A DNA stretch of 64,000 nt from a virus: the UHGV virus genome UHGV-0038492; one strand, given 5' to 3'. The translations under genes and the position numbers were made by a program. Below the pieces are notes generated by a model, which did no database searches, was not told the DNA's origin, and saw nothing but the letters and a program-made list of their open reading frames with translations. Numbering within the stretch: position 1 is the stretch's first letter; every line of letters starts with the position of its first letter. This document shows positions 6,380-47,472 of the stretch, in pieces.

Positions 6380-6386
6380 GAAAACC

Positions 6387-6914
6387 ATGGCATATCGCGT
6401 CGACTTAACGAAAACTCCGAAACAAATTCTGGTAGATCGTATTAACTACGTTTTCGGGGTATCCTATACCACTGATAACATCGATTTTAACGATAAAGGT
6501 GTGCAACCACTGACGAAAGACGAAGCCCGTCGTTACGGACTGGAATCGAAAGTGGCCGCTGACTTTAAAAACGGTGTTACAGGGAACCAGGAATTCATCT
6601 TAACCCGTGTTGACCTGGCAACGTTCTTAGCTGACGAACCGGTTACGGTACCGAAAGGCGAAGTAACCAGCAGCCAAGAACTGGCAGACTATATCGTTGC
6701 CCAGACCGGTATTGATTTGACCCAAGACGACATTATGATCGAGCCTATCAGTGAGGAACTCGATTCTTATGATGTTCGCTTAGTCCCGAATCACTTATCT
6801 TTTAAAGGAACGATTCCGGTCGTATTTACTGACCCCACACCACGCACGTTGGCGTCTCTCGTGACGAAACTTGCGCTGGACGGGTTCCGCCCTGGAGAAT
6901 TAATCAATGTCTAA
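6387..6914 (+). CDS. hypothetical protein
   Basis: ATG at 6387 just after the upstream stop; the track start at 6360 is TTG. Confidence 0.6.
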   Translation: MAYRVDLTKTPKQILVDRINYVFGVSYTTDNIDFNDKGVQPLTKDEARRYGLESKVAADFKNGVTGNQEFILTRVDLATFLADEPVTVPKGEVTSSQELADYIVAQTGIDLTQDDIMIEPISEELDSYDVRLVPNHLSFKGTIPVVFTDPTPRTLASLVTKLALDGFRPGELINV

Positions 6915-26603: not shown

Positions 26604-26648
26604 CCTACCGCCCGATTCTATGGGCGGTAGGTGTTTTATTTTTTTTTC
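26604..26648 (+). terminator. intrinsic terminator
   Basis: hairpin cctaccgccc-gattctat-gggcggtagg plus T-run. Confidence 0.65.
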
Positions 26649-26664: not shown

Positions 26665-27228
26665 GTGGCCACATCTTACGTACCTGATTTGAGTCTGACC
26701 TCAGCAGAGCTAGTGGTCGCTTTAATCAATCATGATAACGGGTTACAGCTTACACTAAACGAAATCCGTATTAGCGGAACTGTAACAAACCCATCCCCAA
26801 CAACTTCGCGACGTAACACTATCACCGAAATCAGTAAAATCAGAAAACCAGATGGTGCGTCTGTTGTGGTTTACTACGACAGACTTGACGCCGATGAGGT
26901 ATTAACGTCCGAACCTATTTTGATTTCGTTAGACGGTACCGAAGCGAACATTCGTGATGTGCTTAGTGTTGTAAATGAATACTGCGGTACGAATTTACAA
27001 CCTGAGGACTTACGTGCCTCAGATATTACTTCAGGTAATGATCCTATTGCTATTAACGTTGCTGACGATTCTCCTGCCTGGATGAATGCGTTTATGGTGA
27101 CGTTGTTTGATAAAACCGAACGTGCGTTAGCGAACGAAGAAGATGAAATCTTCTGCATCGGTGACGATAGCGTTCTTACATTCGAGGTTACAGATGGCGA
27201 CAGCACTGAAGAAGACGAGACTCCATGA
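26665..27228 (+). CDS. tail-fibre-associated protein, member of a six-gene paralog family (paralog of 36829..37341)
   Basis: GTG start after GGAGGG; N-terminus PDLSLTS...NHD and C-terminal NEYCGTNLQPEDL shared with 36829. Confidence 0.6.
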   Translation: MATSYVPDLSLTSAELVVALINHDNGLQLTLNEIRISGTVTNPSPTTSRRNTITEISKIRKPDGASVVVYYDRLDADEVLTSEPILISLDGTEANIRDVLSVVNEYCGTNLQPEDLRASDITSGNDPIAINVADDSPAWMNAFMVTLFDKTERALANEEDEIFCIGDDSVLTFEVTDGDSTEEDETP

Positions 27229-27655
27229 GCTCGAAAGCTACGCAGGCACACCCCAAGGCGGGGTACTGCTGTATAGCAAAGACAATAAAGAATATAAAAT
27301 TGATGTTGATAAGTTAGCCCCGGTTGCGACAGTCACCACGGTTAACGGTTCGAATAATGCCGCCACGTTGGATTTCAATACCAGCACTGACATTATTCTG
27401 GTGTTAAACGATCCTAACACTACAGTGACGTTCGCAGCCCTTACCAACGTTGCAGAAAATACCCGTTTCGAAGTAATGCTAACGATTAAGCAAGGAACAG
27501 GGGCGAATAAAGTAACCTGGCCTGAAAACGTTAAATGGCCTCACGGTGCACAACCGGTTTTATCCTACGCGGCAAATGCGGAAGACACTCTGTCGCTTTA
27601 TACCCTTGATGGGGGTGCCACCTGGAAAGGTTCTCTTCTTGCAGCGGGTTACTAA
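27194..27655 (+). CDS. short fibre protein carrying the conserved fibre N-terminal domain
   Basis: N-terminus LKKTRLHELESYAGTPQGGVLLYSKDNKEYK matches the N-termini of 30743 and 37344. Confidence 0.55.
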   Translation: MATALKKTRLHELESYAGTPQGGVLLYSKDNKEYKIDVDKLAPVATVTTVNGSNNAATLDFNTSTDIILVLNDPNTTVTFAALTNVAENTRFEVMLTIKQGTGANKVTWPENVKWPHGAQPVLSYAANAEDTLSLYTLDGGATWKGSLLAAGY

Positions 27656-30600
27656 ATGAGAAAACATTTTCAGCGTCACGCGATTAGCTACGCGTTATCG
27701 TTAGCTTACGGACACCAATCCTTCGTTACCCGGAATACGGGAACGACTCACGACGCGCACAACGAACACTATATTCAAAACGAAGAAGGTGTTCTGTCGA
27801 ATAACCGTCATTTCATTGCTGACACTATGGCGGAATACCAACCGAACGGGGATGCGACGACCGAGGGTCAGTCGTTACACGTTATTGGTTACTGCCACAT
27901 GTATATCGCGACGAAAGACGAAAGATGGTTAGATGCGGCGAAACGTGCCTGGGATGCGTACAACACGTACTTCTACGTCGGACAACCTATTCCGACCACA
28001 CCCCAGCGTCGTATTTGTAACTGGTTGGTAAACGGGAAAGAACCGGTATTAGCACATTATCCAATACATCCTACAGAACCTACCCAAGGTGGGTATAAAA
28101 GCGTTCCTGTAAGGTTTACAAACGGACAGTGTAAAATACCGCATGGTGCACCGTTCTGGGGAGAGTATTTGGATACCTTTACGTTTGCGCATCGTGGTCA
28201 CCCTGCCTGGGAAGCCATTAACGCAGACGTACAGATTATCAAGGAAGACAAAGAAGGGTCAATTAATTGGGAAGATGTTTTAACTCACGTTATTACCAAT
28301 CCTGATAAACCCTACGAGGCCAAAGCGTGGGTTGATTGGCCTACGTTATTAAACAACGCTACAGGGTACACCCCGCTTTGGGGTGGGAGCGCAACAAAAG
28401 CCCCTAAACACGACGTTGACTGGATAATTGCCTGGACAGGTAACAAAATCCAGGACAGTGAGATTATTGAAACAGGATTAGCAGATGCTGATAAAGGTAC
28501 CGTACAGTTAAAAGACACGCAGTTAAACGGTGTCTATTTGATTAACTACGCGGTAAAACTGCCTGTCGAACACGGTGGTTACGAGTTTAAACGTAACGAA
28601 CCGTGGCACAACCGTCCAGTTCACACGCCGTTCTTAGGATCGAAAAACCAATACGGTAACGCCGCTGATGCTGAACTGTGGTTTATTGACGCCTGTTATT
28701 TGCTGTGGCGAATCACGGGTGAAGAGAAATACAAACAAGCATTAGACTGTACTTTCTACACAGCACACGAGTACACGTATATTGATGCGGTAGATAAATT
28801 CTTCCGTCGTTCTACCGCTGCGGAAACACCGTTTACGGACGGCATTTCGTACGACTTCAATTACCCGGACACCGTAAGTGCTACATACGGCCGTGATGAG
28901 AATGGGGATATTACCATCCATGTGCCTGAAGCGGCACAACACTTTATGGAGCAGAAAGCGGTTCGATTCAGGATTAACAAAGACTCCAAACTACGTGTCA
29001 CGTACGGCGGGGTTTGTAAGAACGGCGATCCTGTCTACTGTAAAGCAATGGTAAACATTAACCCTGTGAAAGCTGATACCGAGGAAGTAAACTGGTACGG
29101 TTTAACTTTACCTCGGTCTACGGTAAATACCGTTAAGCAGTACGATGTTGACTTAGGCCAACTTGCCCGTATTAGCACCCCAGAAGGGGAAGATTACCTG
29201 ATAGCTGATGACCGTGCGTGTTCGGACTATGGTGGTTGTACGTGGGAAGAACGTTTTGAGGACAGCATTTACGACGGTCGCGCGGGTACCGTTATAGAAG
29301 CTGAATTTCCTGATGACGGTGCCGGGTTTATTATCGGGTTCTGGTTAACCGCTGAAGAGAAGGTAAAACCGGTTTCTATTGTCTACCGTGCGGACGCAGA
29401 TTTTAACCTGCGTTTAGCTGACAGCGATAAGTGGCGTTGGTGGTGGATGTTACCCAACACAAACAACGAATGGCGTCAGGTAACGTTAAATCCGGATGAT
29501 GCCACACTTTCCAGTTATCAGCCGGACCACACAGACGACGACCCTAAACCGGCAGCGCCGAATTTCGATAAGGTGGATCAGGTCACGATTCTCCCTGACT
29601 CTACGGTTGACCATGCGCACTTTGCTTACTATTGTGTTAACGATGTTCCACCGCTCTTTAATAAAGACGACGGTTATATTCTCACCTTCCGTATTGGGTT
29701 ACGCGGCGGTGGAGAGTTTGATGCGAAGGTCGGCGACTGTACGATCAAAGATTACCGTTTGGATTCGTTAGCGTATTGTCCGGGTACGATACCGTTCTCG
29801 AACAACTATTCAGAAGGTTCAGAACAGTTAGGTGCTTGGCACGGGATGCCTTATCCGGGTTATCAGTATCCGTTTATGTACACTATCCACAAAGACGACC
29901 GGTATAAGCTGTGGTTAGATAACCAGATTCAATTCATGTACGATTCGCAGTTGGCTTACCAACGGCAGCTCGGTGAATTAGGGCCTGGTTGTGCAGCTTA
30001 TATTTGGAACCGTTGGGACAACTACACCTACGGAGAAGCGGATACCTGGACAACGTTCCATTGGAGCGACGACCATCCGTGGCCAGGGTATCAACCTCGT
30101 GCGTTTCATGCTGCGTGTCGTTGCTGGTACGAACTGAAACTAAGAGGTAAAGAGGTTCCTGAAGCGTTAACAAGCTATATTGAAAACTGGGTGAATTGGC
30201 TAGGTGGGTTTGTGGATCGGTTTAACGGACACACCCCTAACGAGTTTCCTACAGCACCGAATAAACCCGTTTGGGTGGAAGATGACTTCAACGCACATAT
30301 GTGTGCGTTGTGGTTAGCAGGCTGTTGTTGGGCATTACTCGCTGGTGCAACGAATCCGAACTACGATAAGGTAGTTAATGCGGCAATTAAGGAGTTAGGT
30401 GAAGGGTTTACGATTACCTCAATTCCGAATAAGCCGATTAACGGGGCGTGGTCTCCAGCCGCTCGAGAGTCTTCCGATAACGGTATGGCTTTTGGGTTCT
30501 ACAGTGGGGAAGCGTTCCGTGCGTTAGGTCTCTACGTTACTTACAAAACTTACGGAGCCAACGCTAATATTTATCGTGACTTAGCGATTACTGACCACAG

Positions 30601-30661
30601 TCAAGCGGTTTTAGACGTTACGTTAACGATAGAAGACGATGCATTAAAACCAGAGCAATAA
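27656..30661 (+). CDS. large Trp-rich protein (1001 aa), probably a virion fibre/receptor-binding component
   Basis: long ORF inside the fibre module; function not recognised. Confidence 0.65.
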   Translation: MRKHFQRHAISYALSLAYGHQSFVTRNTGTTHDAHNEHYIQNEEGVLSNNRHFIADTMAEYQPNGDATTEGQSLHVIGYCHMYIATKDERWLDAAKRAWDAYNTYFYVGQPIPTTPQRRICNWLVNGKEPVLAHYPIHPTEPTQGGYKSVPVRFTNGQCKIPHGAPFWGEYLDTFTFAHRGHPAWEAINADVQIIKEDKEGSINWEDVLTHVITNPDKPYEAKAWVDWPTLLNNATGYTPLWGGSATKAPKHDVDWIIAWTGNKIQDSEIIETGLADADKGTVQLKDTQLNGVYLINYAVKLPVEHGGYEFKRNEPWHNRPVHTPFLGSKNQYGNAADAELWFIDACYLLWRITGEEKYKQALDCTFYTAHEYTYIDAVDKFFRRSTAAETPFTDGISYDFNYPDTVSATYGRDENGDITIHVPEAAQHFMEQKAVRFRINKDSKLRVTYGGVCKNGDPVYCKAMVNINPVKADTEEVNWYGLTLPRSTVNTVKQYDVDLGQLARISTPEGEDYLIADDRACSDYGGCTWEERFEDSIYDGRAGTVIEAEFPDDGAGFIIGFWLTAEEKVKPVSIVYRADADFNLRLADSDKWRWWWMLPNTNNEWRQVTLNPDDATLSSYQPDHTDDDPKPAAPNFDKVDQVTILPDSTVDHAHFAYYCVNDVPPLFNKDDGYILTFRIGLRGGGEFDAKVGDCTIKDYRLDSLAYCPGTIPFSNNYSEGSEQLGAWHGMPYPGYQYPFMYTIHKDDRYKLWLDNQIQFMYDSQLAYQRQLGELGPGCAAYIWNRWDNYTYGEADTWTTFHWSDDHPWPGYQPRAFHAACRCWYELKLRGKEVPEALTSYIENWVNWLGGFVDRFNGHTPNEFPTAPNKPVWVEDDFNAHMCALWLAGCCWALLAGATNPNYDKVVNAAIKELGEGFTITSIPNKPINGAWSPAARESSDNGMAFGFYSGEAFRALGLYVTYKTYGANANIYRDLAITDHSQAVLDVTLTIEDDALKPEQ

Positions 30662-30742
30662 TAACCCGCTTATAAAAAAAATATTGGGGGGGGGGTAAGC
30701 TACTCCCCCCGATCTTTAGCTCCCGATAGAGAACTTAATATC

Positions 30743-33700
30743 ATGGCAAAAGCGGTAAAGAAAATACGATTACATAATCTTAGACCATATACCGGTGATA
30801 TCGGTGAAGGCGTTTTACTTTTCTCCAAGGATGAGAAAGATTATAAGTTACCAGTCCGTGAGATCATTGCGGATATTGACACCGTACGTAATGCGGTGGC
30901 TGAAGCACAGACAGCAGCAACACAATCACAAGAAGCTGCAACTCAGGCTACACAAGCAAAGAATTTAGCAGAAACAGCAAAACAACAAACTGACACCGTT
31001 GCAGCTACGGTTGCTCAACAAGCGCAAACTGTAACCGAAAAAGCAACTGAAGTCGGTACAAAACACACTGAAGTGTTAGCCGCGAAAACTGCGGTAGACG
31101 AAGTATCAGTGTCGGTGAATGAGAAGGCTCAAGCTGTCGCCGCAAGCGAACAATCGGTGACGGCTGCTGCGGCTGATGTAACTAAGAAAGCAGAAACGGT
31201 TGCGCAACAGGCCGGACAAGTTCAACAGACGGCTACCAGCGTCGCAAATACTGCGGCATCAGTTGAGGCCAGTAAAGGTGCAGTGGAGAAAATTGCTGCG
31301 CAGGTCACGAAAGATAAAGAAACGTCGGAGGGCGCGGCTACCCGCTCAGAAGCGGCCGCACAACGTGCTGAGAAAATCGCCGCCCAAGGCTTAGTTGACG
31401 CTAGTACGATCGGTAAAGGCATCGTTAAACTTAACGATACCCTGACTAGTGAATCCGTGACGGAGGCTGCCACGCCGTCCACGGTTAAACAGCTGAACGA
31501 CGAATTACAGTTAAAAGCCAATAAACATTCGCCGAATTTTACGGGTAAACCGACATCCCCAAAACCGCCGAAGGACTCGAATGACACGAGCATCTCCACA
31601 ACGTCCTGGGTGCGTGACGCGATTGCTGAATTGGTTGGTTCCTCACCCGAGACGTTAAATACCTTAGCGGAATTAGCAGAGGCGTTAGGTAATGACCCTA
31701 ACTTCGCAACAACGATCACTGAGGAGCTTGCGCAGAAGCAACCTATCAGCCCATTACTCACCGCAATCGCTGCGGTTACAAGTGCAGCAAACAAACTCCT
31801 GTATTTCACGGGCTCTAATAAAGTCGAGTTAACCGATTTTACAGAAACTGCCAGATCCTTGTTAGCGAAAGGGTCAACTGCGGATATTATTAACTTCCTG
31901 GGTTTGAAACCCACCGTTGATAAAGCAAACGGCGCACTACAGAAAAACTCTAACGGTGCTGATATCCCAAATAAAGAAACTTTTGCTCGCAACATCGGCC
32001 TATCTCCTGATACCTATCTGCGTTTCCGTGGCAAAATGCCTGTAGATGCTGATATTAACACATTTGCTCCAGATGCTAATTACACAGGAACGTGGTCTAA
32101 GTCGACATCAACCAATGCGTCGATGGCAAAACACTTCCCAGAAGACGGTGCAGTCGGTTATCTGGAAGTGTATAAAGCGGGCAACTACAGTGGCGCGCAA
32201 CGTTTTACCTGTCGTAATGGTAACGTGTACAACCGTATGTTGTCAGCCGCGTGGAACGGAACTAATGGCCCGTGGTCGCCGTGGAGAATGGTAACTACCG
32301 GTGTACGCCCGTTATCTACATCGATTGATCTGAACTCTTTAGGCGGTGCCGAACACATGGGTAACTGGCGTAACTCGTCCAGTTCGTTAGCGGTGTTTGA
32401 CAGACATTATCCTGAAGAGGGCGGTGGCGCTCAAGGTGTTCTGGAAGTCATGGAAGGTGGTCTTTACGGACGGTTGCAGCGATACACTACGCGTCGTGGC
32501 ACAATGTATGTCCGTGGTTTGACTGCAACATGGGATTCATCAAACCCACAATGGGAAGATTGGATTCAGGTTGGTTATCAGACTGACGGTGCTTTCTTTA
32601 AAGCCAATTTTAACGATCTCGTTAAACCGGGTCGTTTCAGTGTCACTGGTCAGGCAACTAACGGCCCACTTACCGGTTCTTCTGGCGAAACCATATTAGG
32701 CGTTTGTGAAGTTACCTTACGCTTAGACGGTACAGGGGTCGAACAGAATTATACCACATACGGCACGGGTGCAGAAACTAAAGGTCGTAAATTCCAACGT
32801 ATCCGTACGGGTAACATTTGGAGCGATTGGCGTGAGGTTTTCACATCCTATTCGCTTCCGTTGGCCTTAGGTATCGGTGGGGTTGCTGCCAAGGTCGATC
32901 CGTTAGACTGGCAAACCTTCGACTTCGTTCCTGGCCAGATGATAAGCACACCGTTGAATACCATGAAAAACATTCCTGCGGGAATGGATTGGGGTGTTAT
33001 TGACGGTAACTTGGTCACTATTCTTGTAGGGGCGTCGGAGGACACCGGTACTGGTCGGAGTATGTTGGTCTGGCGTGGTACAGTGTCTACTGCTAACTAT
33101 CGCTTCTTTGCAGTACGTATCGCCGGTGAGAAGGGTAGCCGTACGATTACGCCACGACAGATGCCTGTGTTAAATGCAGCACACACTTGGGCCGAGAAAC
33201 AAACGTTCTCTAAAGGCTTAGCGGGTGAATTGACAGGTAATGCGTCAACGGCAACGAAACTGAAAACAGCCCGTTTAATCGGTGGTGTAAGTTTCGACGG
33301 CACTAGCGACATTCCACTCCCTGGTGTTAACCAGCAAGGTAATCAAAACACCACTGGGAACGCGGGAACCGCAACCAAATTACAAACGGCTCGAAACATC
33401 AACGGTGTGAAATTCGATGGCTCTAGAGACATCAATATCAACACCTTGGTAGGACGTGGACGTGTTACTGCACTGACGGGATCAAACAAAGGTACGCCTG
33501 GTATTCAGATGTACGAAGTTTACAATAACGGTTATCCGACCGCTTATGGTAACTTATTGCATTTGGGTGGTGCTACTGCGCTAGGCGAAGGCGAGTTGTT
33601 AATCGGATGGTCGGGGACGAGTGGTGCGCACGCGCCAGTTTATATTCGTAGCCGACGTGATACGGCTGACGCGCCGTGGTCAGATTGGGCACAAGTTTAT

Positions 33701-35302
33701 ACTGCCCGTGACAGCATTCCTGGCGTAAATGCCACAGGTAATCAAGATACTACCGGCAATGCCGCTACCGCGACGAAACTGAAAACCGCTCGCAGAATTG
33801 GAGGCGTTACCTTTGACGGTACTGGGGATATCAATTTACCGGGGGTTAACCAAGCCGGTAACCAGAATACGTCAGGTAATGCTGCGACAGCGACTAAACT
33901 TCAGACTGCGCGAAATATAGGCGGTGTGGCTTTTGATGGTACTAAAGACATCAGTTTACCTGGTGTAAACCAGACGGGTAATCAGTCGACTACCGGAAAC
34001 GCAGCCACGGCCACAAAGTTGCAGACAGCTCGTACCATTAACGGTATCCCATTTGACGGCACTAGAAATATATCGTTAGGGCCTGCCGATATAGGTTGCC
34101 CGGCATCACCTAGTGGTTGGTTAGAAACTGGCGCTGATGGCGCTGCAATAACTACAGCACAGCTAGTGACGTTATTGAAAAATAACGGCGCGTTTACCAC
34201 AAGATCGTGGGTTGCTCGCTGCGCATGGGCTTATGCCGCTAGTGCAAGTATACCTCATAGCGAGACGGGTTGTGGTGTTATTCCATTAGCTGGGGCTGTT
34301 ATAGAAGTGATTAGTAACGGCAACAGCACAAACAACTACACGATCCGTATAACGACCGCCACAACGACGAGCGTCTCCGGCGCACTCACTAATGCGGAGT
34401 TTATCTACGTATTTAACGGCGATACTTACTCACCAGGTTGGCGTCGCGTGTACAATACGAGAAACAAGCCAACTGCTGCGGATGTTGGGGCGTTGCCATT
34501 ATCTGGCGGTCAGTTGAATGGCGCGTTGGGTATTGGAACCACTAATGCTTTAGGTGGGAACTCCATAGTTTTAGGGGATAATGACACCGGCCTTAAGCAG
34601 AACGGGGATGGCGTTCTAGATGTTTACGCCAATAATGCTCATGTTTTACGCTTTACGAGTGGGGCTGTTCAAAGCAATAAACCTCTCAACGTTACCGGAG
34701 ATATAAGAACCAATACTTGGGTTTATGCAAATAGATATTCTATTAACAGCAACTCAGGTTCTTGGATTAGCATGAGAGACCATAACGTTATTTTTGGTCT
34801 TAATCCGGTAGGAACTAGTTCTGCTCAGGCATTGTTAAGACAAGACCATGCTGATAGGAAATTTTTTGTTGGTGGTTTAGGTAACTATCAATTCGGCTTT
34901 TACATGATAAACAACTCACGTACTGATAATGGCACCGATGCTAATGCTTATTTGCAAAACGACGGTACTTGGGTTTGTGGTGGGAACGGTAACTTTAACG
35001 ACGTTTATATACGATCTGACGCCCGGCTGAAAAGTAATTTCTCTCCAATAACTAATGCATTGGAGAAGGTAAAGGAATTGTCAGGTTTAATATACGACAA
35101 AAAGGAGAACTTTAAATCCACTAATGTTCATCGTGAGGCTGGTGTTGTAGCGCAGACCTTACAAAAAGTGTTACCTGAAGCAGTTTCTACTTATAAAGAC
35201 GCTAATGGTGAGGACGTTTTGACGGTCTCTAACTCTGCACAAATAGCTCTACTTATTGAAGCAATAAAGGAGTTGGCGGAGATAATTGAGACCAAGTTAT
35301 AA
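30743..35302 (+). CDS. long tail fibre protein with Phage_fiber_2-type repeats and a C-terminal intramolecular chaperone (S74-like) domain
   Basis: N-terminal Ala/Gln-rich coiled-coil; six GNAATATKLQTAR-x-I-x-GV-x-FDG repeats; C-terminal IRS-DARLKSNF autocleavage motif. Confidence 0.8.
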   Translation: MAKAVKKIRLHNLRPYTGDIGEGVLLFSKDEKDYKLPVREIIADIDTVRNAVAEAQTAATQSQEAATQATQAKNLAETAKQQTDTVAATVAQQAQTVTEKATEVGTKHTEVLAAKTAVDEVSVSVNEKAQAVAASEQSVTAAAADVTKKAETVAQQAGQVQQTATSVANTAASVEASKGAVEKIAAQVTKDKETSEGAATRSEAAAQRAEKIAAQGLVDASTIGKGIVKLNDTLTSESVTEAATPSTVKQLNDELQLKANKHSPNFTGKPTSPKPPKDSNDTSISTTSWVRDAIAELVGSSPETLNTLAELAEALGNDPNFATTITEELAQKQPISPLLTAIAAVTSAANKLLYFTGSNKVELTDFTETARSLLAKGSTADIINFLGLKPTVDKANGALQKNSNGADIPNKETFARNIGLSPDTYLRFRGKMPVDADINTFAPDANYTGTWSKSTSTNASMAKHFPEDGAVGYLEVYKAGNYSGAQRFTCRNGNVYNRMLSAAWNGTNGPWSPWRMVTTGVRPLSTSIDLNSLGGAEHMGNWRNSSSSLAVFDRHYPEEGGGAQGVLEVMEGGLYGRLQRYTTRRGTMYVRGLTATWDSSNPQWEDWIQVGYQTDGAFFKANFNDLVKPGRFSVTGQATNGPLTGSSGETILGVCEVTLRLDGTGVEQNYTTYGTGAETKGRKFQRIRTGNIWSDWREVFTSYSLPLALGIGGVAAKVDPLDWQTFDFVPGQMISTPLNTMKNIPAGMDWGVIDGNLVTILVGASEDTGTGRSMLVWRGTVSTANYRFFAVRIAGEKGSRTITPRQMPVLNAAHTWAEKQTFSKGLAGELTGNASTATKLKTARLIGGVSFDGTSDIPLPGVNQQGNQNTTGNAGTATKLQTARNINGVKFDGSRDININTLVGRGRVTALTGSNKGTPGIQMYEVYNNGYPTAYGNLLHLGGATALGEGELLIGWSGTSGAHAPVYIRSRRDTADAPWSDWAQVYTARDSIPGVNATGNQDTTGNAATATKLKTARRIGGVTFDGTGDINLPGVNQAGNQNTSGNAATATKLQTARNIGGVAFDGTKDISLPGVNQTGNQSTTGNAATATKLQTARTINGIPFDGTRNISLGPADIGCPASPSGWLETGADGAAITTAQLVTLLKNNGAFTTRSWVARCAWAYAASASIPHSETGCGVIPLAGAVIEVISNGNSTNNYTIRITTATTTSVSGALTNAEFIYVFNGDTYSPGWRRVYNTRNKPTAADVGALPLSGGQLNGALGIGTTNALGGNSIVLGDNDTGLKQNGDGVLDVYANNAHVLRFTSGAVQSNKPLNVTGDIRTNTWVYANRYSINSNSGSWISMRDHNVIFGLNPVGTSSAQALLRQDHADRKFFVGGLGNYQFGFYMINNSRTDNGTDANAYLQNDGTWVCGGNGNFNDVYIRSDARLKSNFSPITNALEKVKELSGLIYDKKENFKSTNVHREAGVVAQTLQKVLPEAVSTYKDANGEDVLTVSNSAQIALLIEAIKELAEIIETKL
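33230..33440 (+). repeat. intragenic fibre repeats (two copies)
   Basis: GNASTATKLKTARLIGGVSFDG / GNAGTATKLQTARNINGVKFDG. Confidence 0.7.
33724..34078 (+). repeat. intragenic fibre repeats (three copies)
   Basis: three consecutive ~40-aa units GNQxTxGNAATATKL(K/Q)TAR..G..FDGT.DI.LPGVNQ. Confidence 0.7.
35017..35299 (+). other. intramolecular chaperone / autoproteolytic domain at the fibre C-terminus
   Basis: S-DARLK motif at the domain start followed by ~95 residues. Confidence 0.65.
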
Positions 35303-35349
35303 TTATCAGTGAGGGGTTCCCCCTCACTGACTCACAAGTACGTTATAAG

Positions 35350-36141
35350 GTGGTTATTTTGTCTGTATCAGCGACTCCCGGATGGATTGGTTCTTCAGCA
35401 AAAGCTGAAGCTGGTAATGGTTGGATGTCTGGCGCGATGCACACACTCGGTGTGCCAGTTCCAGGCTGGATGTCGCAATTGGCGGGAAAATCAAAAGAGG
35501 CTCAGTATTCGATCGGGGCTAATCACAATTACAATAAAGATACGCTTATTAACTATTTACGTTCCATAGGCTCTACTGCTGTCGTTGTGACCATTACAGG
35601 GGATTTAGTGTCTTATAGTAGCGGGGTTCCTTGTTTAGAGTTCCCTAGCAATCTTCCAAATTCGTATATTACCCTCATCATCAATCCTGGGGTTACAGTA
35701 TACGGCAGAGGAGGCAACGGCGGTTCTAACTCACCAGGCGGTGCAGGTGGAACCGCAATACAGAACGGAATAGGAAACAGACTGCGTATAACCAACCGTG
35801 GCGCTATTGCCGGAGGCGGTGGCGGCGGTGGCGGCGGTAACAGGGGTAGACTAATATTTGGTGGTGGCGGTGGTCGCCCATTCGGTGCTGGTGGGTCTTC
35901 CTCTCATATGAGTTCCGGTGCGGCTGCTGGTACTATTTCCGCTCCTGGTAGAGGATCTGTTGGTGAGGGGTCTCTTAGTGCATATACAGGCGGTTCGGGT
36001 GGTAATGTCGGTGCTGGTGGAGGAAGATGTAATACTCATGGTAACGGTACAGAATATAACGGCGGAGCAGCTGGTGCAGCTGTTACTGGTAATGCGCCAA
36101 GATGGGACGCAGTAGGTGCAATATACGGTTCACGTGTTTAA
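35350..36141 (+). CDS. gp38-like tail-fibre tip adhesin with polyglycine motifs
   Basis: N-terminal PGWIGSSAKAEAGNGWMSGA and polyglycine blocks GGGGGGGGGN, GGGGGRPFGAGG; start uncertain (GTG 35350 or TTG 35359). Confidence 0.55.
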   Translation: MVILSVSATPGWIGSSAKAEAGNGWMSGAMHTLGVPVPGWMSQLAGKSKEAQYSIGANHNYNKDTLINYLRSIGSTAVVVTITGDLVSYSSGVPCLEFPSNLPNSYITLIINPGVTVYGRGGNGGSNSPGGAGGTAIQNGIGNRLRITNRGAIAGGGGGGGGGNRGRLIFGGGGGRPFGAGGSSSHMSSGAAAGTISAPGRGSVGEGSLSAYTGGSGGNVGAGGGRCNTHGNGTEYNGGAAGAAVTGNAPRWDAVGAIYGSRV

Positions 36142-36157
36142 TTAAAAAGGAGGGTAG

Positions 36158-36670
36158 ATGGGGGTAGCGTCAGGATGGGTCGGATCTTCAGCTAAGAATG
36201 AAACTGGCCAACAATGGATGAGCGCTGCGGGTAGTAAATTAGGATTGGGTAGACCTTTTATGATGAGCCAAATGGTAGGCAAGTCCGTAGGTTGCAAAAT
36301 AGCAACAGCTTATTATAAAACGTCAAATACTGATAAAGTAGAGAACTGGGGTGCTGTCGGAGCCGATTGGCCGTTGGTAGATAAGAACAAAGGAACGCTT
36401 TCTGGTGCCTCGAACTGTGGCTTAGGACGTTTAGTGGGGATCGTACTTACGCAAGCTCACTACATTTCTGGTGTTCCACCCACTGCGGCTTTATACATCG
36501 CAGGAGGAAGGGCAAGTAATATTACAGTAACAGTTGGTGGTGTTTCGCAAGCATTTACTTACGATAGTGTTATTAACGGTTTTCACTATTATTGGCAAGG
36601 AACGCCTAGTTCGGCCTTTATAGCGGCAATGAAGAAGACGGGTGTTACACAAGATTTGAAAGTTAGCTAA
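36158..36670 (+). CDS. gp38-like N-terminal domain protein (adhesin/chaperone paralog lacking polyglycine blocks)
   Basis: N-terminus GWVGSSAKNETGQQWMSAA parallels 35350; AAGGAGGG upstream of ATG. Confidence 0.5.
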   Translation: MGVASGWVGSSAKNETGQQWMSAAGSKLGLGRPFMMSQMVGKSVGCKIATAYYKTSNTDKVENWGAVGADWPLVDKNKGTLSGASNCGLGRLVGIVLTQAHYISGVPPTAALYIAGGRASNITVTVGGVSQAFTYDSVINGFHYYWQGTPSSAFIAAMKKTGVTQDLKVS

Positions 36671-36828
36671 CTAATTGGGGTAAAACGATAACTAAAACTA
36701 GTAAAATAAGAGTTCGTGAATTCGTAATTCAATAATTTTTTATAGAAAGATTGATTTATTAGAATCGGAGGGGTGCGATGTTTTTAGCCAACATTTTACG
36801 TCTCCCCAATCATAGGAGGTAACCATAC

Positions 36829-37341
36829 GTGGAACAATTCACGCCAGATTTGTCGTTAACTTCACTTAACATGGTTATTTCACTGGTTAACCATGACCTC
36901 CAGCTTGACTTGCAAGAGAACGAGGTTGAAGTCAGCGACGTAAAGACCAGTAACGAAATGGATCGTGACACCACTGCTGTTGTAAAGATAAAACGTCCCG
37001 GTAACAGAACGTTACAAATCTATTACAACCGTTTAACCGCAGAACGTTGGTTAAACCAGCAACCTATTCTGGTGCAAGTAACTGGAGAGGGGTTTAACAC
37101 ACACGATTTAATCGATGCGATTAACGCAGCCTGTGGTAGTAACCTGCAACCCGAAGATCTTCAGGACGATTCATTTACAGTAGGAAAAGACGCTGTAACG
37201 TTACAGGTATCACCTAACTCCCTAAGTTATAAAGGCCAATTCTCTGTTTTGGTTTTTGGTAACGGCGAAGAGGCCGCAGTAACAAAAGATGACAACCTAA
37301 TCGTTACCGCAGATAATCGCGTCTTAACCTTTGGAGGTTAA
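36829..37341 (+). CDS. tail-fibre-associated protein, paralog of 26665..27228
   Basis: GTG start after AGGAGGT; shared PDLSLTS and NAACGSNLQPEDL motifs. Confidence 0.6.
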   Translation: MEQFTPDLSLTSLNMVISLVNHDLQLDLQENEVEVSDVKTSNEMDRDTTAVVKIKRPGNRTLQIYYNRLTAERWLNQQPILVQVTGEGFNTHDLIDAINAACGSNLQPEDLQDDSFTVGKDAVTLQVSPNSLSYKGQFSVLVFGNGEEAAVTKDDNLIVTADNRVLTFGG

Positions 37342-37343
37342 CA

Positions 37344-37964
37344 GTGGCTGAACTGGTAGGAAAGGTACGCATTCACGAGCTACCGTCACTTTCAGAAGAC
37401 ATTACTGGTGTGGTGGTGTTAGCGTCTAAGGAACAAACCGAATACCAACTCCCGATTGAGAATTTAGGGGGTGGTGAGGTTACAGTGAGTCCGTCAGCGA
37501 ATAACATCCTTAAGTCTAACAGCGATGGACTGTTTGTTGATGGCGCACATCCTATTGTACCGAAAATGGATGCAAAAACCTTATCGGGAAATATGGTGGT
37601 AGAAAAAACGCTGACAGGTGGTGCGGTAATCTGCAAAACAACGGTTGACGTTAATAATAGGCTGGGGATTTCGCAATTATCTGGGGTGTCAATTTATAGC
37701 CAGTGCCTGCTGGAAAATAAATTGGTTTACCTGGCAGAAGACGGCAGTATTATTGATGCGTACTTCTACATTAGTAATACAAAGAACACGGCCAGTACAA
37801 TAACCCACACCATTCGGGTTGTCTTAGCGAAAGTACCTTCTAAAGTTGTCGATATCACCGATTTATCTGAAACTGAGGTGCAGTATCAGGATGCTAATTT
37901 GCCTGTTAAGATCGTTATTAAGCATCTTACAGGGACAACACTTTCCCAGAACGGAATGAAATAA
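37344..37964 (+). CDS. short fibre protein with the conserved fibre N-terminal domain
   Basis: N-terminus VGKVRIHELPSLSEDITGVVVLASKEQTEYQ; GTG start after GGAGG. Confidence 0.55.
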   Translation: MAELVGKVRIHELPSLSEDITGVVVLASKEQTEYQLPIENLGGGEVTVSPSANNILKSNSDGLFVDGAHPIVPKMDAKTLSGNMVVEKTLTGGAVICKTTVDVNNRLGISQLSGVSIYSQCLLENKLVYLAEDGSIIDAYFYISNTKNTASTITHTIRVVLAKVPSKVVDITDLSETEVQYQDANLPVKIVIKHLTGTTLSQNGMK

Positions 37965-37969
37965 GTTAT

Positions 37970-38016
37970 AGGTAGTAGGGGCTAAGCCCCTACTACCTTT
38001 CTTTTTTTTTATTTTT
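37970..38016 (+). terminator. intrinsic terminator
   Basis: hairpin ggtagtagggg-ctaa-gcccctactacc plus long T-run. Confidence 0.7.
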
Positions 38017-46130: not shown

Positions 46131-46979
46131 ATGTCTCTTACGTCAAAACAGAAACTGCTAAAACTCATCAACACTGAAAACAATATTATTCCACCGTTGA
46201 CTTTCAGTGATGTTGAAATCGGGGAACCTACCGGTACTGGGGTTGATACCCAGGTGGTTCTGACCTCTAAACTTAAAGGCGATGAGTCTACTACTTTAAC
46301 AGTGACTTACCACCGTCGTAACTTACCTGACTACCTAACCGGTGAGTTGGTATTCGGTAACGACAGTGTGGTAACCGCATCAGATTTGCTTAATGCGATT
46401 AACGCAAAATACAACCTAAATATTTTACCCTCGGATATCGTTGACGCAAAAGTTGAAGGCGAAACCCATCAGCTTACCGCTAACGAGAAATCTTACGAGT
46501 GGTGCGGTGTAGTAACGCTTACGCTGCGCGATCCTATTGACCTGACTGAACTGTTACCGGTTACTCAATTAGAGAATCTGGTAGAGTATCCGTCCACGAA
46601 GAAAGGTAACGCGGCGGTTTATTCTCACCCGATTGATTTCACCGCAGAAAAAGATTACCTTGACCCGATTACTATCAACGACGCTGTAGACTTGGTAGAA
46701 TTAGCTACTAAACTGGATAGCGTCGTTGACGAGAAATGGGTAAGCGTACCTAAGAACGCGGCTAACAACCTGTACGGAGCGAAGATTATTTACGATGGTC
46801 CAACCGCAGGTTACGAAGGCGCAAATACGAAGTTCACTCGTGTGTTGGTGCTAACACTCAGCCCGCTGTGTTCTAACCTGACCGGTAACCTGTTAATTCA
46901 CTTTAACGGGACCGATCGTCCGAAGTCGAAGATTGAATTAGCACAGACTAATCCGGTCTTACCGGGATTCTTAGATTAA
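46131..46979 (+). CDS. member of the six-gene structural-protein paralog family
   Basis: DLLNAINAKYNLNILPSDIVD aligns with the NLQPEDL motif of 26665 and 36829. Confidence 0.55.
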   Translation: MSLTSKQKLLKLINTENNIIPPLTFSDVEIGEPTGTGVDTQVVLTSKLKGDESTTLTVTYHRRNLPDYLTGELVFGNDSVVTASDLLNAINAKYNLNILPSDIVDAKVEGETHQLTANEKSYEWCGVVTLTLRDPIDLTELLPVTQLENLVEYPSTKKGNAAVYSHPIDFTAEKDYLDPITINDAVDLVELATKLDSVVDEKWVSVPKNAANNLYGAKIIYDGPTAGYEGANTKFTRVLVLTLSPLCSNLTGNLLIHFNGTDRPKSKIELAQTNPVLPGFLD

Positions 46980-46992
46980 GAGGATTACAGTA

Positions 46993-47472
46993 ATGGCCAA
47001 TCAAGAAACTATCTTCGACCTTATTAAAAAGGCTAACCCGGACGCTGAGTTCGACACCACCAAAGTCACACTGGGTGAACCGGTTGTGACCACCGGTACT
47101 TACAATACCGAAATTACGGTTGCGTCGATTAAGAATCTCGGTTATGTTAATAAGCAAACGTTCCAGTATAACCGCATTGACGCAGGTTTGTATTTCCTGA
47201 ACGTATTACCGAAATTGTTGGTAGAATCTGCAACGACTACCGCTGACTTACTGCCCGTCATTAACGAGCAGTACAGCCTAACCCTTACAGAAGACGACGT
47301 GTGGGTAGAACAGGTTGGTGAGTTACCGTTAGACGGTAGCGCAATCGAACACGGTATTTTCTTCCGTCCTGAGTGTCTGACCTGGGTTGGTGGTTTTACA
47401 GTGCGTGTTGCGCGTAAACCGGCTGACGCCACACCGCCAAAGACGGCGTCTCGCGCTAAAAAGAAAAAATAA
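46993..47472 (+). CDS. member of the six-gene paralog family; Lys-rich C-terminus
   Basis: ADLLPVINEQYSLTLTEDDV motif; N-terminus parallels 46131. Confidence 0.55.
   Translation: MANQETIFDLIKKANPDAEFDTTKVTLGEPVVTTGTYNTEITVASIKNLGYVNKQTFQYNRIDAGLYFLNVLPKLLVESATTTADLLPVINEQYSLTLTEDDVWVEQVGELPLDGSAIEHGIFFRPECLTWVGGFTVRVARKPADATPPKTASRAKKKK

What the first reader, a model, noticed from the sequence alone, without database searches (positions are those of the whole stretch)
26665..37964. Modular tail-fibre cassette: three fibre genes share one N-terminal anchor domain, two flanked by paralogous partner genes
Genes at 27194, 30743 and 37344 start with the same ~35-residue segment (R/K-I/L-H-E/N-L...GVVLL/F-SK-D/E-E/K-Y) but diverge completely afterwards (153, 1519 and 206 aa). 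Genes 26665 and 36829 are paralogs placed directly upstream of two of them, both with GTG starts. This looks like interchangeable receptor-binding modules on a common attachment site, consistent with multiple fibre types or host-range switching.
Basis: seen in the sequence. Interest (0 to 1): 0.55.

Follow-up and report, generated by a model that had tools for sequence, protein, structure and literature searches.

The report
Shared anchor on swappable tail-fibre proteins
A giant (SPN3US/Asesino-like) phage of enterobacteria puts the same 45-residue N-terminal "plug" on three different host-recognition proteins, and related phages carry the plug on at least eight different protein bodies, so this is a real mix-and-match host-range locus whose docking site on the virion is still unknown.

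Summary
Proteins starting at 27194, 30743 and 37344 share residues 1-45 (z 14-21 against shuffles) and nothing afterwards. 26665 and 36829 are paralogs (36% identity, E 8e-38), and both are DUF7941 proteins.

The window is an SPN3US/Asesino-like chimallivirus. The locus lies between two strong terminators and is mosaic in relatives, which carry 1 to 5 plug-bearing genes.

In 1.84 billion representative proteins the plug occurs about 20 times. Every full-length match is at the extreme N-terminus, on at least 8 kinds of body.

Homologous bodies in other phages carry known virion-attachment domains at the same position: the T7 gp17 N-domain in Yersinia phage ISAO8, and the P2-type collar domain in Goslar gp90. 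The plug is therefore most likely the virion-attachment module.

- **153-aa protein:** probably an adaptor for the adjacent 1001-aa enzyme-like tail protein.
- **1519-aa protein:** a mosaic long fibre with a self-cleaving chaperone end and two gp38-type tip adhesins.
- **206-aa protein:** an optional extra binder.

The small DUF7941 proteins are candidate sockets or assembly factors. This is unproven and is weakened by published virion mass spectrometry.

No switching mechanism is present. I rate it a new variant of a known kind, of moderate interest.

The parts
26604..26631 (+). Strong intrinsic-terminator-like hairpin (11 pairs plus a T run) marking the upstream border of the cassette
26665..27228 (+). 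DUF7941a: small DUF7941 protein (187 aa, GTG start). It has the N-terminal globular module (about res 8-150) and an acidic C-terminal tail with the motif IFCIGDDSVLTF. It overlaps the next gene by 35 nt. Ortholog of SPN3US gp122.
   Evidence: Pfam PF25613, 74 bits; phrog_2935; alignment A5; orthologs at 42-48% identity in SPN3US, Asesino and pEa_SNUABM_29; SPN3US numbering
27194..27328 (+). Plug copy 1 (res 1-45 of the 153-aa protein): MATALKKTRLHELESYAGTPQGGVLLYSKDNKEYKIDVDKLAPVA
   Evidence: The AF2 model gives a disordered arm (res 1-22) and a beta-hairpin (res 24-37)
27194..27655 (+). 153-aa plug-bearing adaptor or short fibre (ortholog of SPN3US gp123). Res 47-153 form a confident beta-sandwich that resembles the N-terminal docking parts of branched phage tailspikes.
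27656..30661 (+). 1001-aa tail-associated, glycosidase-like protein with no plug. Its start codon directly follows the stop codon of the 153-aa gene. Ortholog of SPN3US gp124.
   Evidence: phrog_2871; 41% identity over the full length to ISAO8 gp39; 38% identity to Goslar gp92 res 277-1188; SPN3US gp123 and gp124 are both found in virions at similar relative abundance
30743..30877 (+). Plug copy 2 (res 1-45 of the long fibre): MAKAVKKIRLHNLRPYTGDIGEGVLLFSKDEKDYKLPVREIIADI
30743..35302 (+). 1519-aa mosaic long tail fibre. From N to C: plug, Ala/Gln-rich rod, Phage_fiber_2 repeat, a shaft up to 75% identical to Goslar gp90, a distal part 57-58% identical to fibres of SSU5-like phage-plasmids, and a C-terminal Peptidase_S74 intramolecular chaperone (res 1425-1481, 35015-35185).
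   Evidence: Pfam; PHROGs; Goslar comparison; tblastn of the distal part
35350..36141 (+). Complete gp38-type tip adhesin (Gp38_N plus GP38 domains), 78-90% nucleotide identity to gp38 of T-even phages
   Evidence: Pfam, 232 bits; megablast
36158..36670 (+). Second tip adhesin: the same Gp38_N attachment domain (res 1-40) with a different C-terminal domain (phrog_1121)
   Evidence: 42% identity to 35350 over 59 aa only; in relatives only 36142-36310 stays conserved
36829..37341 (+). DUF7941b: paralog of DUF7941a (170 aa, GTG start), with tail motif LIVTADNRVLTF. Its stop codon lies 2 nt before the next gene.
   Evidence: Pfam, 60 bits; blastp E 8e-38 against 26665
37344..37478 (+). Plug copy 3 (res 1-45 of the 206-aa protein): MAELVGKVRIHELPSLSEDITGVVVLASKEQTEYQLPIENLGGGE
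37344..37964 (+). 206-aa plug-bearing protein. Its body (res 47-205) matches the C-terminus of an 842-aa PHROG of unknown function. The gene is optional: it is precisely absent from the E. coli record NZ_CP173450.1 and is replaced by other plug-bearing genes in relatives.
   Evidence: phrog_33169; relatives; deletion; the AF2 model was unusable, pLDDT 34
37970..37998 (+). Strong intrinsic-terminator-like hairpin (13 pairs plus a T run) marking the downstream border of the cassette

Best explanation
Region 26665-37964 is the variable host-recognition locus of an SPN3US/Asesino-like chimallivirus (jumbo phage) of Enterobacteriaceae. It is bounded by two strong terminators.

The shared 45 residues consist of a basic arm and a beta-hairpin. 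They form a lineage-specific N-terminal plug that most likely fixes each protein to the virion, at the peripheral baseplate or at DUF7941 modules attached to it. Everything after the plug is an exchangeable body.

- **153-aa protein:** plug plus a small beta-sandwich. It most likely serves as the docking platform for the plug-less 1001-aa glycosidase-like tail protein encoded directly downstream.
- **1519-aa protein:** plug plus a mosaic long fibre. Its tip is matured by a self-cleaving S74 chaperone and is then capped by one of two gp38-type adhesins, which share their own N-terminal attachment domain. The same plug logic is thus repeated at the distal end.
- **206-aa protein:** plug plus a small optional binding body.

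Several binders are expected on one particle at once. Host range changes between genomes by recombination at module borders, not by a switch inside one genome.

The two small DUF7941 paralogs (globular module plus short tail) are the best candidates for the partner of the plug, either as low-copy connectors or as assembly factors.

Shown here: the homology, the strict N-terminal position and rarity of the plug, the mosaicism, the domain contents and the conserved gene order. Inferred: that the plug mediates attachment. Speculative: that DUF7941 is its receptor.
For: An exhaustive profile search of 1.84e9 representative proteins found 24 hits at E<=0.001. Every full-length match lies at residues 1 to about 45. 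The proteins are 133, 154-156, 188, 205, 259, 273, 706, 710 and 1494 aa long.

Published phage genomes hold the plug in 24 records, once each, always on the roughly 155-aa SPN3US gp123 ortholog.

Relatives of the window carry between 2 and 5 plug genes:
- L013 has five (153, 1385, 273, 205 and 710 aa).
- L012 has four.
- L018 has a long fibre plus a 706-aa SASA-esterase protein.
- L014-16 have two.
- L021 has two.

Flanks are 88-95% identical, and homology breaks at module borders.

Domain replacement supports an attachment role. ISAO8 gp38 is the Phage_T7_tail N-domain joined to a homolog of the 153-aa body, and it is followed by a homolog of the 1001-aa protein at 41% identity. Goslar gp90 shares up to 75% identity with the shaft of the long fibre but starts with the Pfam Phage_tail_fib collar domain.

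For the adaptor role of the 153-aa protein:
- The pair of genes is kept together in both podophages and jumbo phages.
- The stop and start codons are adjacent.
- SPN3US gp123 and gp124 are both in virions at similar relative abundance.
- The fold resembles the N-terminal hub of CBA120 TSP4.

For the DUF7941 link:
- In every locus read that reached upstream of its first plug gene, a small DUF7941 gene lies directly upstream of at least one plug gene.
- Goslar gp92 fuses a DUF7941 module (hhalign E 4e-5) to the homolog of the 1001-aa enzyme.
- L014 fuses a glycosidase-like domain to DUF7941b.
- DUF7941 proteins form filaments, and phiKZ gp127 sits in the peripheral baseplate (bioRxiv 10.64898/2026.04.21.720040; PMC13250141).

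Terminators flank the locus.
Against: No physical interaction was tested. Prediction of a complex was not possible with these tools.

Several results count against DUF7941 as a stoichiometric socket:
- SPN3US gp122, the ortholog of DUF7941a, was not detected in wild-type virions (PMC5694885).
- Goslar gp91 is estimated at about 1 copy per virion, against about 43 for the fibre gp90.
- The same SPN3US paper places the DUF7941-like paralog family B in the head, because members were detected in a tailless mutant.
- Plug genes outnumber small DUF7941 genes by up to 5 to 2.
- Goslar gp91 has the same tail motif although gp90 has no plug.

Confidence: 0.68

Rival explanations
1. The plug docks directly on a peripheral-baseplate protein, such as a counterpart of phiKZ gp130 or one of the giant SPN3US gp168-170-type proteins. 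The small DUF7941 genes would be unrelated neighbours that belong to the separate DUF7941 filament system.
For: In phiKZ the fibres dock under gp130, not on the DUF7941 protein gp127 (PMC13250141). SPN3US gp122 is absent from virions and Goslar gp91 is present at about 1 copy. Plug genes outnumber small DUF7941 genes. Goslar keeps the gp91-gp90 pair although gp90 has no plug.
Against: A small DUF7941 gene and a plug gene are adjacent, and overlapping or nearly so, in every lineage examined. DUF7941 is covalently fused to the same enzyme in Goslar gp92. The last roughly 28 codons of DUF7941b change together with the type of downstream plug in L017-L019.
Confidence: 0.3
2. The small DUF7941 proteins are assembly factors for the plug-bearing proteins. 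They would hold or deliver the N-terminal plug during trimerisation or attachment and would not be retained in the virion.
For: They are absent or nearly absent from purified virions. They are translationally coupled to the downstream plug gene. Phage fibre genes commonly have a dedicated neighbouring helper gene (general knowledge); relatives here also carry DUF4376 helper-like genes.
Against: DUF7941 is otherwise a structural family. It is abundant in Goslar virions, it forms filaments, and phiKZ gp127 is modelled in the baseplate. In L014-16, DUF7941b is fused to a glycosidase-like domain, and in Goslar DUF7941 is fused to binding or hydrolase domains. That arrangement is not what one expects of a chaperone.
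Confidence: 0.2
3. The shared segment is not an attachment module. It would be a trimerisation, folding or export tag, or simply a relic of gene duplication.
For: The AF2 model gives low to moderate confidence for residues 1-45. There is no match to any known attachment domain in Pfam or PDB.
Against: The segment is conserved across at least eight unrelated bodies and several genera while everything after it is replaced. Homologous bodies carry established virion-attachment domains at exactly this position. The copies share no DNA-level repeats, so the protein conservation is old and selected.
Confidence: 0.07

Closest known systems
SPN3US gp122-gp123-gp124 (also Asesino gp139-141 and pEa_SNUABM_29 gp28-26)
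   Same: This is the orthologous core trio: a small DUF7941 protein, a roughly 155-aa plug-bearing protein and a roughly 1000-aa tail-associated protein. Gene order is the same and identity is 42-48%.
   Different: Those phages have a single plug gene. The window adds a plug-bearing long fibre with two gp38 adhesins, a second DUF7941 gene and a third plug gene.
Branched multi-tailspike systems (CBA120 TSP1-4, G7C gp63.1/gp66, Klebsiella KP32-type 'anchor-branch' receptor-binding proteins); named from my own knowledge
   Different: The plug has no sequence similarity to those docking segments. The host is a chimallivirus with a very different, star-shaped peripheral baseplate. The neighbouring genes are DUF7941 proteins.
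phiKZ tail-fibre paralogs gp131/133/134/135 (PMC13250141)
   Same: These are also in a chimallivirus. Paralogous fibre proteins share an N-terminal attachment region and diverge in their C-terminal parts.
   Different: The phiKZ module is a larger domain plus a helix that forms a six-helix bundle under gp130. The plug profile matched no chain in a 2026 PDB copy; I did not confirm that phiKZ gp131-N chains are in that copy. The predicted structure here is an arm plus a beta-hairpin.
Goslar DUF7941 'fibre cloud' proteins and the gp91-gp90 pair (bioRxiv 10.64898/2026.04.21.720040)
   Same: DUF7941a and DUF7941b are members of this family. In Goslar a small DUF7941 gene also sits directly upstream of the long fibre. 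Goslar gp92 carries the homolog of the 1001-aa enzyme.
   Different: Goslar fuses binding or hydrolase domains covalently to DUF7941 and has no plug. Here the bodies are separate proteins that carry the plug.
T2/T6/S16-type gp37-gp38 fibre tip, also found in SSU5-like phage-plasmids
   Same: A fibre ending in an S74 chaperone is followed by gp38 adhesins with the Gp38_N attachment domain.
   Different: The tip is grafted onto a chimallivirus fibre with a different proximal end. Two alternative adhesins are encoded in tandem.
Melnykvirinae podophage module (Yersinia phage ISAO8 gp38-gp39)
   Same: The same two-gene body: a small beta-sandwich protein and a roughly 930-1000-aa tail enzyme, at 34% and 41% identity.
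   Different: The podophage attaches the pair with the T7 gp17 N-terminal domain, whereas the window uses the plug.

Membership tests
DUF7941 (Pfam PF25613), for 26665 and 36829 | Match to the family profile above the curated cut-off | tested here: met
   74.2 and 60.3 bits against a cut-off of 27. The matches cover profile positions 3-154 of 276, which is the N-terminal module only.
DUF7941 (Pfam PF25613), for 26665 and 36829 | Found in chimalliviruses only (as stated in the Goslar preprint) | tested here: met
   The window's structural genes match phiEaH2, Asesino and SPN3US-type jumbo phages. tblastn of 26665 hits only jumbo phages.
DUF7941 (Pfam PF25613), for 26665 and 36829 | Head-to-tail self-assembly into filaments and a location at the peripheral baseplate | not testable with these tools
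   Known only from AlphaFold 3 models and negative-stain EM of Goslar gp22 and from phiKZ gp127. SPN3US mass spectrometry argues against virion presence of the gp122 ortholog.
Branched tailspike systems with N-terminal docking segments (CBA120, G7C, KP32 type) | Two or more receptor-binding proteins in one genome share a short N-terminal segment and differ afterwards | tested here: met
   Three in the window and up to five in relatives.
Branched tailspike systems with N-terminal docking segments (CBA120, G7C, KP32 type) | An adaptor protein with T4 gp10-like (XD) docking domains | tested here: inconclusive
Branched tailspike systems with N-terminal docking segments (CBA120, G7C, KP32 type) | Demonstrated binding of the docking segment to the adaptor or baseplate | not testable with these tools
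gp38-type tail-fibre tip adhesins | Gp38_N attachment domain plus the GP38 receptor-binding domain | tested here: met
   35350-36141 has both domains (44 and 233 bits). 36158-36670 has Gp38_N only (73 bits) with a different C-terminal domain.
Fibres with an S74 intramolecular chaperone | C-terminal Peptidase_S74 domain | tested here: met
   Residues 1425-1481, 55.6 bits against a cut-off of 22. Self-cleavage itself was not tested.
phiKZ gp131-type fibre N-terminal domain | Sequence similarity of the shared N-terminal region | tested here: not met
   The plug profile found no PDB chain at E<=10 other than chance hits. I did not check whether phiKZ gp131-N chains are in that PDB copy. No Pfam hit. 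This is a sequence-level test only.
Invertible or phase-variable tail-fibre switches (Mu G segment, P1 C segment) | Alternative fibre ends in opposite orientation, flanked by inverted repeats, with an invertase | tested here: not met
   All genes are on the + strand. The only inverted repeats are terminator hairpins and short chance pairs.

The most novel reading that the evidence does not exclude
The 45-residue plug is a docking peptide for DUF7941 modules. In this lineage, receptor-binding proteins would be hung non-covalently on DUF7941 connectors or filaments at the peripheral baseplate. This would be a plug-and-socket version of the covalent DUF7941-enzyme fusions of Goslar. A chimallivirus could then re-arm its 'fibre cloud' simply by swapping plug-bearing genes.
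Probability: 0.25. Interest if true: 0.7.

Novelty: new variant of a known kind. Interest (0 to 1): 0.55.

Why it matters
The 2026 cryo-EM structures of Goslar and phiKZ left the tail fibres and much of the peripheral baseplate of chimalliviruses unassigned. This locus offers a short, well-defined attachment module found on many different binding proteins, together with a natural series of variants carrying 1 to 5 such proteins. That gives concrete handles for three things: finding the docking site, explaining host range in a jumbo-phage lineage seen in hundreds of Salmonella, E. coli and Shigella assemblies, and engineering host range by exchanging bodies behind a constant plug. Modular receptor-binding proteins are well known in phages, so the principle itself is not a surprise.

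Tried and rejected
- **Complex prediction:** I submitted a chain fusing DUF7941b to the plug through a linker.
- **AF2 of the 206-aa protein:** the 15-sequence alignment was too shallow and the model was unusable (pLDDT 34), so I ran no fold search on it.
- **Word-indexed database search with the plug profile:** it returned only short fragments. The exhaustive search replaced it.
- **PDB sequence searches:** the 1001-aa, 153-aa and DUF7941a proteins and the plug profile gave nothing.
- **Plug mimics the DUF7941 tail:** the two share only a hairpin-like pattern, with no alignable similarity. Charge co-variation between tails and plugs is weak and not independent of phylogeny. Goslar gp91 has the same tail motif without a plug downstream.
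- **Goslar gp92 residues 150-290 as the equivalent of the 153-aa body:** hhalign shows no relation.
- **ISAO8 gp38 contains the plug itself:** the aligned stretch is not convincingly conserved. Only the body is homologous.
- **tblastn of the 206-aa body against phage genomes:** no match.
- **CGATCTT as a shared promoter element** before 26665 and 30743: not enriched.
- **Recent duplication or recombination arms:** there are no DNA repeats between the plug copies.
- **Invertible switch:** rejected.
- **The window is Goslar:** rejected, because the protein masses and sequences differ.

Full report
**1. The observation**

- 26665-27228: GTG start, 187 aa.
- 27194-27655: ATG start, 153 aa.
- 27656-30661: 1001 aa.
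- 30743-35302: 1519 aa.
- 35350-36141: 263 aa.
- 36158-36670: 170 aa.
- 36829-37341: GTG start, 170 aa.
- 37344-37964: GTG start, 206 aa.

The three N-termini align over 41-50 residues (blastp E 5e-11, 5e-6 and 8e-6) and share nothing afterwards. Local alignment scores of 74-108 compare with about 20 for shuffled sequences (z 13.6-21.2; 0 of 5000 shuffles reach them). An HMM of the segment finds exactly three copies in the six-frame translation of the window.

26665 and 36829 are 36% identical over 170 aa (E 8e-38).

**2. What phage this is**

Structural genes elsewhere in the window match Erwinia phages phiEaH2, Stratton and Asesino and Salmonella SPN3US-type phages at 71-75% DNA identity. 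The window is therefore a chimallivirus-type jumbo phage.

It is not Goslar: protein masses and sequences differ.

Its proteins occur on 220-226-kb contigs in many assemblies of Salmonella, E. coli, Shigella and Enterobacter. They also occur on a circular 221,873-bp record filed as an E. coli plasmid.

**3. The parts**

*The upstream paralogs.* Both are DUF7941 proteins (Pfam 74 and 60 bits, cut-off 27). They cover only the N-terminal module of the family, followed by a short tail with a conserved motif, IGDDxVLTF or a relative of it.

*The 153-aa protein.* An AF2 model (pLDDT 82.7) shows a disordered arm (res 1-22), a hairpin (res 24-37) and a confident beta-sandwich (res 47-153).

*The 1001-aa protein.* It has no plug. 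It is 41% identical over its full length to the tail protein gp39 of Yersinia podophage ISAO8 and 38% identical to residues 277-1188 of Goslar gp92.

*The 1519-aa protein.* It is a mosaic fibre with these elements, from N to C:
- the plug;
- an Ala/Gln-rich rod;
- a Phage_fiber_2 repeat;
- a shaft up to 75% identical to Goslar gp90;
- a distal part 57-58% identical to fibres of SSU5-like phage-plasmids;
- a C-terminal S74 chaperone.

*The two adhesins.* Two gp38-type adhesins follow the fibre. They share the Gp38_N domain and differ afterwards. The first is 78-90% identical in DNA to gp38 of T-even phages.

*The 206-aa protein.* Its body matches only the C-terminus of an 842-aa PHROG of unknown function.

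*The borders.* Strong terminator-like hairpins lie at 26604-26631 and 37970-37998.

**4. How rare and how modular the plug is**

In published phage genomes the plug occurs in 24 records, once per genome, always on the roughly 155-aa ortholog of SPN3US gp123.

An exhaustive profile search of 1.84 billion representative proteins found 24 hits at E<=0.001. Every full-length match lies at residues 1 to about 45. The proteins are 133, 154-156, 188, 205, 259, 273, 706, 710 and 1494 aa long.

The three copies in the window share no DNA repeats, so the paralogy is old and is maintained at the protein level.

**5. The locus in relatives**

Da and Db stand for DUF7941a and DUF7941b. "A" marks a plug-bearing protein, followed by its length in aa.

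| Source | Gene order |
|---|---|
| SPN3US, Asesino, pEa_SNUABM_29 | Da, A~155, ~1000-aa enzyme (L005 shows only Da and the start of the plug gene before its contig ends) |
| Window | Da, A153, 1001, A1519, gp38, gp38', Db, A206 |
| NZ_CP173450.1 (L021) | As the window, but the A206 gene is precisely deleted |
| L014-16 | Da, A1540, gp38, gp38', a 644-aa fusion of a glycosidase-like domain to Db, A206 |
| L018/L019 | Da, A1497, two Gp38_N proteins, Db, A706 (SASA esterase plus DUF6645) |
| L017 | Db, A259 (Ig-like domain) |
| L013 | Da, A153, 1001, A1385, A273, DUF4376, Db, A205, A710, DUF4376 (five plug genes) |
| L012 | As L013, but A153 and the 1001-aa gene are deleted, leaving a remnant of A153 |

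Flanking genes are 88-95% identical to the window. Inside the locus, homology breaks at module borders. Examples are just after Gp38_N (36142-36310) and inside or just after DUF7941b.

This is direct evidence for module exchange between genomes.

**6. Why the plug is most likely the virion-attachment module**

The same bodies exist in other phages with established attachment domains at the same position.
- ISAO8 gp38 is the T7 gp17 N-terminal domain (Pfam Phage_T7_tail) joined to a homolog of the 153-aa body. It is followed by the homolog of the 1001-aa enzyme.
- Goslar gp90 shares the fibre shaft but begins with the P2-type collar domain, Phage_tail_fib.

The plug thus replaces known anchors.

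The pairing of the small protein with the enzyme is conserved across podophages and jumbo phages. Their stop and start codons are adjacent. SPN3US gp123 and gp124 have similar relative abundance in virions (0.42 and 0.64 spectral counts per kDa). Together with the TSP4-like fold, this supports the 153-aa protein as an adaptor for the plug-less enzyme.

**7. The DUF7941 question**

*In favour of a link:*
- In every locus read that reached upstream of its first plug gene, a small DUF7941 gene lies directly upstream of a plug gene, overlapping or nearly so.
- Goslar gp92 has a DUF7941 module (hhalign E 4e-5) fused to the same enzyme.
- L014-16 fuse a glycosidase-like domain to DUF7941b.
- The Goslar preprint reports DUF7941 filaments. 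Together with the phiKZ atlas it places a DUF7941 protein, gp127, in the peripheral baseplate.

*Against a stoichiometric socket:*
- SPN3US gp122 was not detected in wild-type virions.
- The SPN3US authors place the related paralog family B in the head.
- Goslar gp91 is estimated at about 1 copy per virion, against about 43 for gp90.
- Plug genes can outnumber small DUF7941 genes five to two.
- Goslar gp91 has the tail motif without a plug next door.

I therefore treat DUF7941a and DUF7941b as candidate connectors or assembly factors, not as established partners.

**8. Switching**

All genes are on one strand, and there are no flanking inverted repeats and no invertase. Several binders per particle, with exchange between genomes, fits the data. 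A switch within one genome does not.

**9. Verdict**

This is a real host-recognition locus, and its modularity is shown directly by the variation among relatives.

The principle is known from CBA120, G7C and Klebsiella phages, and from the phiKZ gp131 paralogs. In those systems several binders share N-terminal docking segments, and adaptors carry enzymes.

The specific 45-residue plug, its restriction to the SPN3US/Asesino-like lineage and its association with small DUF7941 genes are not described in the papers I could search.

I rate it a new variant of a known kind, with interest 0.55.

Noticed in passing
window 35350-36141 and 36158-36670: Two tandem gp38-type adhesins share only the Gp38_N attachment domain. 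In relatives, only the first roughly 170 nt (36142-36310) of the second gene stays conserved while the rest is replaced. The shared-N-terminus, swapped-body logic is thus repeated at the fibre tip.
   Followed up: partly
window 35450-36143: The gp38 gene is 78-90% identical in DNA to gp38 of T-even phages (JSE, Phi1, RB49, FL18, PaulHMueller). The fibre's distal part is closest to SSU5-like phage-plasmids. This indicates fairly recent exchange between a chimallivirus, T-even myoviruses and siphovirus-type phage-plasmids.
   Followed up: partly
L006-L009 (metagenome relatives), aligned to window 30960-30975: Four contigs from different samples have a 1-nt deletion in an A run at about codon 73 of the long-fibre gene. 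The deletion truncates the product to the plug plus 29 residues. The same contigs lack the 153-aa and 1001-aa genes (window 27217-30604). It could be a pseudogene, slippage or an assembly error.
   Followed up: partly
NZ_CP173450.1 (L021) and contigs behind P0005-P0024 and P0056-P0085: This jumbo-phage lineage appears as 220-226-kb contigs in many isolate assemblies of Salmonella, E. coli, Shigella and Enterobacter. The exact DUF7941a sequence is on 405 contigs. The lineage also appears as a circular 'plasmid' in a complete E. coli genome from human urine. This suggests a carrier state or culture contamination rather than a true plasmid.
   Followed up: no
window 46131-46979, 46993-47472, 6360-6914: Three further DUF7941-like paralogs lie in the window: a 282-aa full-length form next to a 159-aa short form, which resembles the Goslar gp22/gp23 pair, and a 184-aa one.
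   Followed up: no
L014:8067-10001 (also L015, L016): In these relatives DUF7941b is the C-terminal part of a 644-aa ORF. Its first roughly 470 residues are a glycosidase-like domain annotated as tail fibre in PHROGs. This order is the reverse of the Goslar DUF7941 fusions.
   Followed up: partly
literature: PMC5694885 versus bioRxiv 10.64898/2026.04.21.720040: The SPN3US authors place their 20-member paralog family B in the head, because members were found in a tailless mutant. They tentatively assign gp122, the ortholog of DUF7941a, to this family, and my DUF7941 HMM weakly hits a nearby array of SPN3US paralogs that I take to be family B members. The Goslar preprint places DUF7941 proteins as a fibre cloud on the baseplate. 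The two views conflict and this is unresolved.
   Followed up: no
window 30686-30711: The spacer between the 1001-aa gene and the long-fibre gene holds a G10 run paired with a C6 run (hairpin, about -23 kcal/mol for the 83-nt spacer). The fold is not better than shuffles (z -1.1). It may be an internal attenuator, and the homopolymer is prone to sequencing error.
   Followed up: partly
L013 and L012, genes after the 273-aa and 710-aa plug proteins: Two of the extra plug-bearing genes in relatives are each followed by a DUF4376 gene (184-186 aa; PHROG 'tail fiber protein'). These are probably their dedicated assembly helpers. The window has none.
   Followed up: no
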